64,000 nucleotides of DNA from an uncultured Bacilli bacterium (GTDB lineage Bacteria; Bacillota_I; Bacilli_A; RF39; UBA660), in contig CAKOHV010000003.1 in assembly GCA_934086145.1 (NCBI GenBank), forward strand, positions 13,451 to 77,450, written 5' to 3'. Both the position numbers and the translations under genes were made by a program. Within the stretch, counting starts at the first letter, position 1, and the number at the start of each line of letters is the position of its first letter. A model generated the notes under the pieces. The model ran no database searches, had not been told where the DNA came from, and saw only the letters and a list, made by a program, of their open reading frames with translations. This document shows positions 5,884-50,619 of the stretch, piece after piece.

Positions 5884-6189
5884 ATGACAATTAAAGATAT
5901 TTTTAGATATTTAGTAGGAGCTTATTATGGAATGAGCGAAATGGATGAATATGATCTAAAAGAATTTGTTCTTAATGATATTGAACAATATATTAGAAGT
6001 TTCGTTCTTGAAAATAAGCAAACAACTGTTGATTATTTAGAAGAGGCTCTGGATGTAAAAGATAATGTTAGTTTAAAAGTTAAATTACAAGATTGTTTGC
6101 TGGTATTACCAAAGGTTGAAGCTCCGCTAGAATTAATTTTATTAGTAAAAAGGCGAATTAAAAATTTAAATGATGACGATGATTTTTAG
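5884..6189 (+). CDS. hypothetical acidic protein (101 aa)
   Basis: GGTGAT SD. No recognisable family. Ends in NDDDDF. No terminator before the downstream RNA promoter. Confidence 0.45.
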   Translation: MTIKDIFRYLVGAYYGMSEMDEYDLKEFVLNDIEQYIRSFVLENKQTTVDYLEEALDVKDNVSLKVKLQDCLLVLPKVEAPLELILLVKRRIKNLNDDDDF

Positions 6190-6242
6190 AAAATATCAAA
6201 AAAGCTATTGACTAATGAATAAAATAATGATATAGTTTAGAT

Positions 6243-6620
6243 ACTTAATAGTAAAGTAAGTTTCAAATATTTAGGATGGATATTTTATAGTTGTGTATAC
6301 TTTTATAATCTGTCTTTAGTCTTAATTATTGAACTTACATGGTTGCTGGGTGATGAACTAATAACAATCAATGTTAGATTTATCTTTCATTGGTTGGACC
6401 GTTTATTCCAGCAGGATATTACTGATGGGAATCGGTTAATTAATTTTAACTTTTCTTATCTATATAAAAGGTAATATTTTGATATCTTGTCGAGCTATTA
6501 GGTATGTACGTGTATGTGGCGTTTTGGCAAGAGGCTAGCAGCTACCTGTCAATGACTGTTAGTTTGAATAATATTAAGCCACGAAGAAGGTTATTGTTTG
6601 ACAGACAATAATTTTTTTTT
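6243..6620 (+). ncRNA. candidate structured ncRNA, unit A (~380 nt), family not recognised
   Basis: -35 TTGACT 6208-6213, 17-nt spacer, extended -10 TGaTATAGT 6228-6236. No credible ORF. Long-range helix GTAAGTT 6256-6262 / AACTTAC 6332-6338. Terminator TTATTGT 6591-6597 / ACAATAA 6605-6611 plus T9. Ends are predicted, not measured. Confidence 0.55.
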
Positions 6621-6692
6621 GCCTTTTTATAAATATAATAAATTTAGAAAAAAAGTCTTGACGTAGTATGAAAAAAATGGTATATTTAAGTT

Positions 6693-7018
6693 ACTTAATA
6701 GAGAGAGTGCTTGCTAGTAATTTTATTAGTACAAAAATACTATGATTACTAGTTAAAAGGCTCAGTGATACATGCCGATATGATAGTAACTGAAATTACT
6801 CTTATTGTCATATATCACTTTATAAACAAGGGATAATAATTAATATTATTCAAAATTATTGTTTATTAATGATAATATCTTGTCAAGCTATTAAGTATAT
6901 ACGTACATGTGACGCTATTGGCAAGAGGCTTATAATTATATCTGTCAATATGTTATAAGTTTAACAATGATTATGTCACGAAAAGGATTGTGGTTTTGAC
7001 AGGCTACAGTTTTTTTTT
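6693..7018 (+). ncRNA. candidate structured ncRNA, unit B (~325 nt), paralogue of unit A
   Basis: -35 TTGACG 6658-6663, 17-nt spacer, extended -10 TGgTATATT 6678-6686. Helix CTAGTAAT 6714-6721 / ATTACTAG 6745-6752. Terminator ATTGTGG 6987-6993 / CTACAGT 7004-7010 plus T8. No credible ORF. Confidence 0.55.
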
Positions 7019-7071
7019 GCCTTAATTTTATTAAATGAAAATACTATGATATAATAAAGATGGTGGTTTTT

Positions 7072-8187
7072 ATGAATGAAAAAGAGTTTAAAAATAAAAT
7101 TTTTTTAATTACTTATGGTGTTATCTTGTTTGTCTTATTGATGAATTATAAGTGGCTTTTTAGTGCTTTTAGTGTTCTTGCTAAGGTTTTAGCGCCTTTT
7201 GTTGTTGGAATTATCTTTGCGATGATTTTAAATGTTTTGGTTAATTTCTTAGAACAAGGACTATTAAAAAAAGTTAAGAAAAATAAACGATTACTTAGTG
7301 TATTGTTGTCGTTAGTGATGGTTTTTGGTTTTATAGCATTTTTGATTTTGATATTGATTCCACAAATCAAAAATGCTGGAGAGATTTTTGTTGATAATAT
7401 TCCGGAATATCAGAAAACTATTCATGATATTGGGAAGAGTTTAGGCTTTAGTAATGATGAATTGAAAGTTTTAGAACTAGAAAATACTAATTTAAAGAAA
7501 GAAATATCAGATTATTTAACAACTAATTATGGTCGTATTTTAAATTATTCAATGGGCTTTGCTTCTTCGGTTTTCTCGGTTGTTTGTAATTTCTTTGTCG
7601 GTTTAGTTTTTGCTATTTATTTATTGATGGGCAAAGAAACGTTGTTAAATCAATTTAAGAAGTTATTACAATGTATTATGAATGATAAAGTTTATACTAA
7701 GTTTTGTGAGGTGATGAGCCTTTCTAATGCGGTTTTTTCAAGCTTTATTAAGGTCCAATTTGTAGAAGCTTTTATTTTAGGAATTTTGTGTTTGCTAGGT
7801 ATGCTCTTATTTAGATTACCTTATGCAGCGACGATATCTGTCTTAGTAGGAGTAACGGCTTTAATTCCGGTATTTGGAGCCTTTATAGGGTGCGCGGTAG
7901 GAACTTTTTTGATTTTTATGATTAAGCCTATTAAAGCGGTGACTTTTATTATATTCTTCCTTGTTTTGCAACAAATTGAAGGAAATTTTATTTATCCGCG
8001 TGTCGTTGGAGGAAAGATTGGGTTACCAGGAATCTGGGTTTTAGTAGCTGTTACGATTGGTGGTTCAGTCGGCGGAATTCTAGGAATGTTACTTGGAGTG
8101 CCTGTTCTGTCAGTGGTGTATAGTTTGGTAAGAGTTTCAGTTAATAAGAAGGTTGCTAAGAAGAGTAAGAAAAAAGAAACCCAATAA
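7072..8187 (+). CDS. AI-2E (PerM/YdiK) family transporter
   Basis: Polytopic membrane protein with the family-typical C-terminal half (QQIEGNFIYPRVVG, GLPGIWVLVAV). ATG 7072 has a GGTGG SD at 7062-7066; ATG 7060 has none. Confidence 0.75.
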   Translation: MNEKEFKNKIFLITYGVILFVLLMNYKWLFSAFSVLAKVLAPFVVGIIFAMILNVLVNFLEQGLLKKVKKNKRLLSVLLSLVMVFGFIAFLILILIPQIKNAGEIFVDNIPEYQKTIHDIGKSLGFSNDELKVLELENTNLKKEISDYLTTNYGRILNYSMGFASSVFSVVCNFFVGLVFAIYLLMGKETLLNQFKKLLQCIMNDKVYTKFCEVMSLSNAVFSSFIKVQFVEAFILGILCLLGMLLFRLPYAATISVLVGVTALIPVFGAFIGCAVGTFLIFMIKPIKAVTFIIFFLVLQQIEGNFIYPRVVGGKIGLPGIWVLVAVTIGGSVGGILGMLLGVPVLSVVYSLVRVSVNKKVAKKSKKKETQ

Positions 8188-50272: not shown

Positions 50273-50401
50273 TAAATTCACTCCCATCTTATTCTTTTAT
50301 AATTATACAACAAGTATTTTTTTTACTCAATGTTTTTTAGTGACTTTTAGTAAAATGGATTTAGGGTTGATTTTAAAATATGGTTGTTTTATAATACATT
50401 T

Positions 50402-50619
50402 AAATACGTTGAACAAGAGGAGTAAGCTATCGTATTTTTTAGAGAAGTCTTGGTTGGTGGAAAAGATTAAAGATGATAGGTGAAGGTAGCTTGGGAGTAG
50501 TATATCAGAAAAATGAGTAAGATATAATGTTGGTCGCATTAAGACATAGAGATAGTTCATAGCTATGAATTAAGGTGGTACCACGTTTTAGACGTCCTTA
50601 TGTAAGGAGGTCTTTTTTT
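50402..50619 (+). promoter_or_regulatory. T-box riboswitch leader (probably Val-specific)
   Basis: Promoter TTGATT 50367-50372, 17 nt, TATAAT 50390-50395. AGAGA box. T-box AATTAAGGTGGTACCACG near 50569-50585. Terminator AGACGTCCTT / AAGGAGGTCT plus T7 (50590-50619). Candidate specifier lies inside GAAGGUAG (GUA or GGU), unresolved by eye. Confidence 0.8.

What the first reader, a model, noticed from the sequence alone, without database searches (positions are those of the whole stretch)
6478..7018. Shared 3' module: compensatory base changes and a conserved 7-mer complementary to the terminator loop
Hand alignment of 6481-6620 (A) with 6874-7018 (B) gives three observations. First, GTGGC 6516-6520 pairs with GCCAC 6578-6582 in A, while the aligned positions in B are GTGAC 6909-6913 and GTCAC 6975-6979. 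That is a G:C to A:T double change that keeps the helix. Second, the terminator stems differ in sequence but not in shape: TTATTGT/ACAATAA in A versus ATTGTGG/CTACAGT in B. Both present the same TTGACAG in the loop (6598-6604; 6996-7002). Third, an invariant CTGTCAA (6546-6552; 6942-6948) about 50 nt upstream is perfectly complementary to that loop. A further invariant pair, TCTTGTC (6485-6491; 6878-6884) with GGCAAGA (6526-6532; 6920-6926), would enclose the GTGRC arm and so implies pseudoknotted or mutually exclusive folds. A loop-docking or alternative pairing that involves the terminator is what a ligand- or factor-responsive expression platform would look like. A 1-nt indel and non-third-position substitutions argue against a conserved peptide here.
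Basis: seen in the sequence. Interest (0 to 1): 0.7.

Follow-up and report, generated by a model that had tools for sequence, protein, structure and literature searches.

The report
Tandem novel RNA genes with complementary loops
Two neighbouring genes in an uncultured gut bacterium encode a previously undescribed folded non-coding RNA in which the tips of two hairpins, one of them the transcription terminator, are perfectly complementary; it looks like a stand-alone structured RNA, not a gene switch, and its function is unknown.

Summary
Window 6190-7040 holds two tandem, same-strand transcription units: A about 6241-6620 and B about 6691-7018. Each has a strong TG-extended sigma-70-type promoter and a weak hairpin followed by a T9 terminator. 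Both share the first 9-11 nt and a 140-nt 3' module, around an unalignable 180-390 nt middle.

I found homologues in five species-level groups of one clade of uncultured low-GC gut Bacilli. They always lie between a 96-101-aa ORF and an AI-2E transporter gene. There is no Rfam match and no copy in the phage, plasmid or viral collections.

- **Supported by compensatory changes:** the GUGRC/GYCAC helix (two independent G:C to A:U swaps), a 14-bp hairpin P3, and the terminator stem.
- **New finding:** the invariant CUGUCA(A) is the apical loop of P3. With the invariant terminator loop UUGACAG it is a loop-loop (kissing) candidate, not an antiterminator.
- **Not demonstrated:** the kissing pairs never vary, so they carry no covariation evidence. 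UCUUGUC/GRCRAGA shows only U-A/U-G changes.
- **Against a regulated expression platform:** no conserved antiterminator exists, each unit has its own promoter, and the downstream gene has its own conserved extended -10.

Best reading: a new lineage-restricted structured ncRNA family of unknown function.

The parts
6208..6236 (+). Promoter of unit A: TTGACT, 17 nt, TG-extended TATAGT, with an upstream A-tract.
   Evidence: 10 of 12 matches, TG present. The same architecture is conserved in every homologue.
6241..6620 (+). ncRNA unit A, about 380 nt. The 5' end is predicted from the promoter and the 3' end from the T9 tract.
   Evidence: MFE -109 kcal/mol, z = -6.5 against shuffles.
6241..6251 (+). 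P1 5' strand of unit A (AUACUUAAUAG), the very 5' end of the transcript.
   Evidence: It pairs with 6495-6505 in the MFE and consensus folds. The 9-bp core is invariant, so there is no covariation.
6252..6481 (+). Variable multi-hairpin domain of unit A, enclosed by P1. It cannot be aligned with unit B or with the 528-nt type.
6485..6491 (+). UCUUGUC, 5' strand of the candidate pseudoknot PK1.
   Evidence: helix 1: 100% paired, with only U-A/U-G variation.
6495..6505 (+). P1 3' strand of unit A (CUAUUAGGUAU).
6503..6519 (+). Conserved junction: a 17-nt alternating purine-pyrimidine tract, GUAUGUACGUGUAUGUG.
   Evidence: It is not supported as a hairpin.
6516..6520 (+). P2 5' strand of unit A (GUGGC).
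   Evidence: helix 2. Column 42/111 is AU in 8 copies and GC in 6.
6526..6532 (+). GGCAAGA, 3' strand of candidate PK1 (GRCRAGA in homologues).
6533..6565 (+). P3 hairpin of unit A. Its apical loop contains the invariant CUGUCAA at 6546-6552.
   Evidence: helix 3: 6 of 14 pairs have changes on both sides.
6578..6582 (+). P2 3' strand of unit A (GCCAC).
6583..6620 (+). Terminator helix of unit A: purine tract 6583-6590, stem 6591-6597 with 6605-6611, loop UUGACAG 6598-6604, and U9 at 6612-6620.
   Evidence: helix 5; -6.1 kcal/mol.
6658..6686 (+). Promoter of unit B: TTGACG, 17 nt, TG-extended TATATT.
6691..7018 (+). ncRNA unit B, about 328 nt.
   Evidence: MFE -81.8 kcal/mol, z = -4.6.
6692..6701 (+). 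P1 5' strand of unit B (UACUUAAUAG). It pairs with 6888-6897.
6878..6926 (+). Unit B core, 5' half: UCUUGUC 6878-6884, P1 3' strand 6888-6897, junction, P2 5' strand GUGAC 6909-6913, GGCAAGA 6920-6926.
6927..6962 (+). P3 hairpin of unit B, with loop CUGUCA(A) at 6942-6948.
6975..7018 (+). Unit B: P2 3' strand GUCAC 6975-6979, purine tract, terminator stem 6987-6993 with 7004-7010, loop containing UUGACAG 6996-7002, and U9 at 7010-7018.
   Evidence: and (-8.7 kcal/mol).
7047..7055 (+). Predicted extended -10 (TGATATAAT) belonging to the AI-2E transporter gene itself (CDS 7072-8187).
   Evidence: Read in the sequence. TGNTATAAT is conserved at this place in all five species.

Best explanation
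Window 6190-7040 carries two tandem, independently transcribed paralogous genes for a previously undescribed, lineage-restricted structured non-coding RNA.

Each RNA is a conserved core interrupted by a variable insert.
- **P1.** The first 9-11 nt pair with the start of the 3' module and close a 180-390 nt variable multi-hairpin domain.
- **Junction and P2.** A conserved alternating purine-pyrimidine junction follows, then helix P2 (GUGRC/GYCAC).
- **P3.** P2 encloses a 14-bp hairpin, P3, whose apical loop is the invariant CUGUCA(A).
- **Terminator.** Directly after P2 comes the intrinsic-terminator hairpin. Its stem varies, its loop is the invariant UUGACAG, and the U-tail can pair with the upstream purine tract to give a helix about as long as P3.

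I infer that the two loops form a 6-7 bp intramolecular kissing complex. This would lock P3 against the terminator helix. It would build a compact 3' domain that stabilises an otherwise weak, AU-rich terminator hairpin and the RNA's 3' end, and probably offers a recognition surface for a partner. The terminator would then be constitutive rather than switchable.

Shown: the promoters, the terminators, the shared core, P2, P3, the terminator stem, the strand, the absence of a conserved ORF, and the narrow distribution. Inferred: P1, the kissing contact, its intramolecular nature, and any function.
For: - **Transcription signals.** Strong TG-extended promoters and T9 terminators are conserved in every copy.
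- **Folding.** Both units fold far better than shuffles (z = -6.5 and -4.6). The same architecture appears in three unrelated body types.
- **P3.** RNAalifold on a plain MAFFT alignment finds P3 with compensatory pairs.
- **Pair counts over 14 distinct copies.** 99.4% of cells are paired, against 91.4% in shuffles and 42-52% when the partner is slid. Changes on both sides occur in 6 pairs of P3, 4 of the terminator stem and 1 of P2.
- **P2.** The G:C to A:U swap arose twice: between A-type and B-type copies, and between L004 (GUGAC/GUCAC) and L149 (GUGGC/GCCAC).
- **Strand.** Many G.U pairs in P3 and the terminator mark the + strand as the RNA strand.
- **Loops.** Both 7-mers are invariant in all copies while the stems beneath them change. 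A complement at the P3 loop position arises in 0.03-0.04% of shuffles. The duplex is worth about -7.3 kcal/mol, against terminator hairpins of only -6 to -9 kcal/mol.
- **No switch.** No conserved antiterminator was found.
- **No peptide.** No conserved ORF was found.
- **Not a known family.** There is no Rfam match in the window or in the homologues.
Against: - The kissing pairs never vary, so there is no covariation evidence for them (helix 4). The same holds for P1.
- Only five species-level groups and three body types were recovered, so the independent events are few. Alignment A5 was also fitted to the model structure.
- I have no expression data.
- The consensus terminator scan calls no terminator here, because the stems have fewer than 3 G-C pairs.
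- Nothing here tests whether an intramolecular contact between P3 and the terminator loop is sterically possible.
- Function is not addressed by any result.
Confidence: 0.55

Rival explanations
1. The complementary loops pair between molecules, not within one. The P3 loop of one RNA would pair with the terminator loop of another, giving head-to-tail homodimers, A/B heterodimers or higher oligomers.
For: The two loops are identical in A and B and in all species, so A:A, B:B and A:B contacts are all possible. Both genes have strong promoters, which implies high concentration. Natural bacterial RNAs do use conserved kissing loops as intermolecular bridges, and several of those were first read as intramolecular contacts (PMC12286853).
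Against: Three of the five species have a single unit, so heteromers cannot be the essential form. Nothing here separates intra- from intermolecular pairing. The palindrome-like junction is not supported as a pairing element.
Confidence: 0.15
2. The 3' module would be a cis-acting, ligand- or factor-responsive leader whose P3-to-terminator loop docking tunes termination and read-through into the AI-2E transporter gene. The model is the regulatory L5-L13 kissing loop of corrinoid riboswitches.
For: The element lies directly upstream of, and on the same strand as, the AI-2E gene in all five species. The terminator hairpin is weak, so a tertiary contact could matter for termination. Kissing loops that stabilise an expression-platform hairpin have a precedent (PMC10653944). 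The conserved core with a possible pseudoknot could in principle be an aptamer.
Against: - No conserved antiterminator exists, and the complementarity is limited to loop nucleotides.
- Unit A is followed by another promoter, not by a gene.
- The AI-2E gene keeps its own extended -10, 16-22 nt before the ATG, in all species.
- The 180-390 nt interior is not conserved between types.
- There is no Rfam riboswitch match.
Confidence: 0.12
3. The two loops are separate recognition sites. They could be seed regions for base pairing with trans targets or binding sites for a protein. Their mutual complementarity would then be incidental or auto-inhibitory, and the RNA would act as a base-pairing sRNA whose variable domain sets target specificity.
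For: Tandem paralogous sRNA genes with shared ends and a divergent centre are a known layout (OmrA/OmrB, from my own knowledge). Invariant apical loops are typical seed or protein sites. The variable domain differs between paralogues.
Against: The chance that the loops of the module's two free-standing hairpins (P3 and the terminator, both with covarying stems) are perfectly complementary is about 3-4 in 10,000. A target complementary to one loop would have the same sequence as the other. No candidate target was found in the adjacent leader, which I checked by eye only.
Confidence: 0.1
4. The conserved motifs act at the DNA level. TTGACAG and CTGTCAA would be an inverted repeat for a DNA-binding protein, or TTGACA would be a -35 element for another promoter.
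For: TTGACA equals the -35 consensus. The two 7-mers form an inverted repeat in DNA.
Against: No acceptable -10 lies 16-18 nt downstream of either TTGACA on either strand (by eye). The half-sites are 51-58 bp apart. Both sit exactly in the loops of hairpins whose stems covary with G.U pairs, which is an RNA-level signature.
Confidence: 0.03

Closest known systems
Tandem paralogous sRNA genes with shared ends (OmrA/OmrB of enterobacteria; also Qrr and LhrC multicopy sRNAs). This comparison rests on my own knowledge.
   Same: Adjacent same-strand genes, each with its own promoter and intrinsic terminator. The 5' end and 3' module are nearly identical and the centre is divergent. The number of copies differs between related species.
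   Different: This RNA is 330-530 nt against about 80-100 nt. It has a complex core (long-range P1, P2, P3 and a possible pseudoknot). There is no sequence or Rfam similarity, no known chaperone, and no identified seed or target.
Regulatory L5-L13 kissing loop of corrinoid (cobalamin) riboswitches (PMC10653944).
   Same: A loop of the structured core is complementary to the loop of a 3' hairpin of the transcript. The contact could stabilise that hairpin.
   Different: In the corrinoid case the docked hairpin, P13, competes with an antiterminator or RBS hairpin, and docking depends on a ligand. Here the docked hairpin is the terminator itself and no competing structure is conserved. The cobalamin model does not match, and the downstream gene has its own promoter.
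Large ornate bacterial RNAs ROOL, GOLLD and OLE (PMC12286853) and phi29 pRNA.
   Same: These are stand-alone, highly structured ncRNAs of unknown or structural function. Conserved kissing loops hold helices or whole molecules together.
   Different: No Rfam match to any of them. This RNA is smaller. It sits at one fixed chromosomal locus in one narrow clade and has no phage or mobile-element context.
Purine-riboswitch-type parallel helices joined by a loop-loop contact. This comparison rests on my own knowledge.
   Same: Two helices of similar length (P3 14 bp; the terminator helix about 15 bp once the U-tail pairs) with complementary apical loops.
   Different: This is not a three-way junction. 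The second helix is the terminator and lies outside P2. There is no homology and no evidence of a ligand.

Membership tests
Any Rfam 15 family (riboswitches, 6S, RNase P, tmRNA, SRP, ROOL, GOLLD, OLE, pRNA, T-box and others) | The sequence and structure score reaches the family's covariance-model threshold. | tested here: not met
   Nothing at gathering score in the region. In 6100-7100 at E up to 10, only two chance hits, both on the U-tract. No hit at E up to 1 in five homologous loci.
Riboswitch or attenuator with a terminator expression platform | A conserved alternative (antiterminator) pairing overlaps the 5' arm of the terminator stem. | tested here: not met
   The best competitors are worth -3.6 to -7.5 kcal/mol and fall at different alignment columns in the different types. 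The CUGUCAA/UUGACAG complementarity ends at the loop.
Riboswitch or attenuator with a terminator expression platform | The element lies in the 5' UTR of the regulated gene, with no promoter in between. | tested here: not met
   Unit A is followed by unit B's promoter. The AI-2E gene has a conserved TGNTATAAT after the terminator in all five species. These promoters are predicted, not mapped.
Riboswitch or attenuator with a terminator expression platform | Ligand binding by a conserved aptamer. | not testable with these tools
   This needs in-line or SHAPE probing with candidate ligands.
Intrinsic (Rho-independent) terminator | A stem-loop immediately followed by a run of at least 7 U. | tested here: met
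   A hairpin and T9 are present in both units and in all homologues, and the stem covaries.
Intrinsic (Rho-independent) terminator | A G+C-rich stem. | tested here: not met
   Only 1-3 G-C pairs and -6 to -9 kcal/mol. The consensus scan reports 0 terminators.
RNA kissing-loop (loop-loop) tertiary contact | Both partners are apical loops of independently supported hairpins. | tested here: met
   The P3 stem and the terminator stem both show compensatory changes.
RNA kissing-loop (loop-loop) tertiary contact | Covariation between the two loops, or protection of them in probing. | tested here: inconclusive
   All 6 pairs are invariant in the 14 copies (helix 4).
Tandem paralogous trans-acting sRNAs (OmrA/B-like layout) | Adjacent same-strand genes with their own promoters and terminators, shared ends and a divergent centre. 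| tested here: met
Tandem paralogous trans-acting sRNAs (OmrA/B-like layout) | A conserved single-stranded seed that pairs with mRNA targets, and dependence on a chaperone. | not testable with these tools
   I had no genome-wide target set and no expression or binding data.
Small protein or type I toxin gene | An ORF with a start codon and Shine-Dalgarno sequence, conserved between copies. | tested here: not met
   No ORF preceded by a Shine-Dalgarno sequence. Frames are broken between A and B and between species.
Mobile, phage or plasmid element | Copies in phages, plasmids or viral contigs, or at varying loci. | tested here: not met
   No match in the phage or plasmid collections. Viral pattern hits are not the RNA (at most 22 bits). 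The locus is the same in all five species.

The most novel reading that the evidence does not exclude
The RNA is a self-assembling RNA-only particle. The invariant P3 loop of one molecule pairs with the invariant terminator loop of the next, as in phi29 pRNA or the ROOL and GOLLD bridges. This would give closed dimers or rings, with A and B co-assembling where both exist, and the variable domains would be displayed on the outside.
Probability: 0.12. Interest if true: 0.75.

Novelty: new variant of a known kind. Interest (0 to 1): 0.45.

Why it matters
If the fold is real, this is an undescribed family of structured bacterial RNA from an uncultured, small-genome lineage of gut Bacilli, a group in which almost no RNA biology is known. 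Its unusual feature is that the terminator hairpin appears to be part of the tertiary structure. The terminator loop is as conserved as the core and perfectly matches another loop. That would be a clean natural example of a terminator serving both as a termination signal and as a docking module. It also offers a small system of about 150 nt for studying loop-loop contacts, or possibly RNA self-assembly. The limits are a very narrow distribution, no hint of function, and no experimental data.

Tried and rejected
1. **Known RNA families.** Rfam at gathering and at permissive E-values, on the window and on five homologous loci, gave nothing.
2. **Peptide.** The 35-aa ORF in unit A is not kept in B, and no ORF with a Shine-Dalgarno sequence is conserved in any unit.
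3. **Antiterminator.** No conserved competitor for the terminator 5' arm was found.
4. **Junction palindrome.** AUGUACGUACAU as a hairpin or dimerisation site is not supported. Shuffles and +/-2 slides pair equally well, because the tract alternates purine and pyrimidine.
5. **TTGACA as a -35.** No -10 lies at the right spacing on either strand.
6. **Mobile or phage origin.** BLAST against phages and plasmids was negative. Three viral-contig pattern scans returned only chance matches.
7. **Extra copies.** None were found elsewhere in the window or near more distant relatives of the flanking small protein.
8. **Searches that under-delivered.**
   - The single genome-collection scan used too strict a pattern. 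It returned one relevant species (UMGS1573) and one chance hit.
   - The single metagenome scan returned three contigs, all of the same species group as L003 and L129.
   - All 12 contig look-ups are spent.
9. **Variable domains.** Shared motifs between types come to only one 9-mer, GUGUAUACU, shared by the A-type and the 528-nt type. I did not pursue it.
Full report
**1. What is at the coordinates**

GTGGC 6516-6520 faces GCCAC 6578-6582 in copy A, and GTGAC 6909-6913 faces GTCAC 6975-6979 in copy B. CTGTCAA lies at 6546-6552 and 6942-6948. TTGACAG lies at 6598-6604 and 6996-7002. TCTTGTC lies at 6485-6491 and 6878-6884. GGCAAGA lies at 6526-6532 and 6920-6926. The repeat finder and a MAFFT alignment show two copies of a module of about 145 nt, 393-398 nt apart.

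**2. The finding is the 3' end of something larger**

The promoter scan finds two of the best sigma-70-type sites of the region on the + strand. They are TTGACT-17-TATAGT (6208-6236) and TTGACG-17-TATATT (6658-6686), both with a TG extension. Each is followed 385-330 nt later by a hairpin and T9.

The alignment of the two units shows that they share three things: the promoter, the first 10 or so transcribed nucleotides (ACUUAAUAG) and the 3' module. The 180-230 nt in between cannot be aligned. So the region holds two tandem transcription units, A (about 6241-6620) and B (about 6691-7018).

There is no tRNA and no Rfam family. At E up to 10, only two chance hits appear, both on the U-tract. The 35-aa ORF at 6504 in A has no start and an early stop in B. 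No ORF preceded by a Shine-Dalgarno sequence is conserved in any unit.

**3. Homologues**

The downstream AI-2E transporter (7072-8187) is found unchanged on gut-metagenome contigs such as those from Hadza samples. The RNA region is 99% identical there.

I walked outward through homologues of that protein and of the upstream 101-aa ORF. Contig look-ups and two pattern scans then recovered the RNA in five species-level groups.
- The window species, with units A and B.
- A second species, also with A and B: L003, L129, L146, L147 and L148. L129 is titled 'uncultured Tenericutes bacterium UMGS1573'.
- 'sp4', assembled from L144 and L141, with one unit of 351 nt.
- L004 and L136-L140, with one unit of 528 nt.
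- L149, with one unit of about 530 nt and an AI-2E protein 64% identical.

The locus is always the same: Mbeg1-like gene, CNNM gene on the minus strand, small ORF, RNA, AI-2E gene.

More distant relatives of the small ORF have no RNA within 2.5 kb. One of those relatives is named Candidatus Coprovivens by its source, a genus of Bacilli incertae sedis. A non-syntenic AI-2E homologue also lacks the RNA. BLAST against phages and plasmids is negative. Viral-contig pattern hits are not the RNA. Rfam finds nothing in the homologous loci either. In all I have 14 distinct module sequences, but only five species and three body types.

**4. Architecture**

MFE folds of both window units are much more stable than shuffles (z = -6.5 and -4.6). 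Consensus folds of the three body types give the same layout each time.
- **P1.** The 5'-terminal (A)UACUUAAUAG pairs with CUAUUARGUA(U) at the start of the module, so the variable domain is an insert closed by a long-range helix. P1 does not vary apart from one U-A to U.G change, so it is supported by conservation and energy only.
- **Junction.** A 17-nt perfectly alternating purine-pyrimidine tract follows. Its apparent palindrome is not supported as a hairpin.
- **P2.** L149 (GUGGC/GCCAC) against L004 (GUGAC/GUCAC) shows the same swap arising a second time within one body type.
- **P3.** Inside P2, RNAalifold on a plain MAFFT alignment predicts a 14-bp hairpin. Six of its pairs change on both sides across the 14 copies.
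- **P3 loop.**
- **Terminator.** Directly after P2 come a purine tract, the terminator stem (4 pairs changed on both sides) and the invariant loop UUGACAG. In the finished RNA the U-tail can pair with the purine tract, giving a helix of about 15 bp, similar in length to P3 (helix 5).

Overall, 99.4% of cells are paired. The figure is 91.4% in column shuffles and 42-52% when partners are slid by 1-3 columns. This alignment was fitted to the model structure, which inflates the numbers. P3 and the terminator covariation are also visible in the unfitted alignment. The many G.U pairs would be C.A on the other strand, so the + strand is the RNA.

**5. The complementary 7-mers**

Because CUGUCAA is a hairpin loop, the relation to the terminator loop is loop to loop, which makes it a kissing-complex candidate. 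It is not chance. In 20,000 dinucleotide shuffles, a perfect complement of the terminator-loop 7-mer appears anywhere upstream in 0.8-1.6%, and at the P3 loop position in 0.03-0.04%. Each 7-mer occurs only three times on the + strand of the 64-kb window. Both are invariant in all copies, while the stems under them change.

That invariance also means there is no covariation evidence for the contact (helix 4). The duplex is worth about -7 kcal/mol, comparable to the terminator hairpins themselves at -6 to -9 kcal/mol.

**6. The UCUUGUC/GGCAAGA pairing**

In homologues the 3' strand reads GGCAAGA, GGCGAGA, GACGAGA or GACAAGA. Both variable positions face a U, so every variant still pairs (helix 1). 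But the changes are transitions on one side only. In this AU-rich sequence I estimate roughly 20 chance 7-bp helices per module when G.U pairs are allowed. In B-type copies CUUGU also has a local upstream partner. I treat this pairing as possible, not shown.

**7. Is it an expression platform?**

I find no support for that.
- The loop complementarity does not extend into the terminator stem.
- The best competitor for the terminator 5' arm is weak and sits at different alignment positions in the different types.
- Unit A is followed by unit B's promoter.
- In all five species the AI-2E gene has its own TGNTATAAT, 16-22 nt before the start codon (window 7047-7055).
- The interior of the RNA is not conserved between types.

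Kissing loops that regulate expression platforms do exist in corrinoid riboswitches. There the docked hairpin competes with an antiterminator or RBS structure (PMC10653944). No such competing structure is conserved here.

**8. Best explanation and rivals**

The most likely reading is a stand-alone, probably abundant, structured ncRNA. Its conserved core (P1, junction, P2, P3 and terminator) is compacted by a contact between the P3 loop and the terminator loop. This contact would reinforce a weak AU-rich terminator hairpin and the 3' end, and would form a recognition surface. The variable insert would be lineage- and paralogue-specific.

The main rival keeps the pairing but makes it intermolecular, giving dimers or rings. 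Natural examples of conserved quaternary kissing loops are now known (PMC12286853). Lesser rivals are the cis-regulatory leader, loops as independent seed or protein sites, and a DNA-level element. The function remains unknown.

**9. Novelty and score**

The RNA matches no described family. Its general layout, tandem paralogous RNA genes with shared ends, is known. A terminator loop conserved as a tertiary-contact partner is unusual. The narrow distribution, the small number of independent sequences, the invariant kissing pairs and the absence of any functional clue keep the score moderate.

**10. Limits**

- The one genome-collection scan used an over-strict pattern and found a single relevant species.
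- The metagenome scan found three contigs of one species.
- The contig look-ups are exhausted.
- A wider cmsearch and R-scape, transcript mapping, and probing of loop mutants are the decisive missing pieces.

Noticed in passing
window 50400-50602 (+): A T-box leader, Rfam RF00230, 123.9 bits with a full-length match. It was the only Rfam hit in the window at gathering score.
   Followed up: no
window 6503-6519 and 6896-6912: The junction between P1 and P2 is a 17-nt perfectly alternating purine-pyrimidine tract (GUAUGUACGUGUAUGUG and GUAUAUACGUACAUGUG). All substitutions among the 14 copies are transitions, so the alternation is kept. Its palindrome-like look is not supported as a hairpin.
   Followed up: partly
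L144:1198-1412 joined to L141:142-277 (species 'sp4'): The single unit of this species has the A-type promoter and first 16 nt but a B-type body and module. It looks like an A/B recombinant (a deletion between the tandem copies) or the ancestral single copy. The number of units (1 or 2) differs between sister species.
   Followed up: partly
window 7047-7055; the same place in L003, L129, L004, L141 and L149: A conserved extended -10 (TGNTATAAT) lies 16-22 nt upstream of the AI-2E start codon. This implies a very short leader that begins just before the GGTGG/GGAG ribosome-binding site.
   Followed up: partly
window 5884-6189 (+): A 101-aa ORF with no Pfam domain, which belongs to a lineage-specific family of 92-104-aa proteins (135 hits). 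No terminator separates it from unit A's promoter. More distant relatives keep the ORF but lack the RNA nearby.
   Followed up: partly
window 6289-6297; L004 and L149 variable domains: The 9-mer GUGUAUACU is shared by the otherwise unalignable variable domains of the A-type and the 528-nt type. It may mark a remnant of common ancestry or a functional loop.
   Followed up: no
window 6583-6590 and 6980-6986: The purine tract CACGARRARR upstream of each terminator can pair with the U-tail (15 pairs, 100% paired). This makes the terminator look bidirectional, although no convergent gene is present.
   Followed up: no
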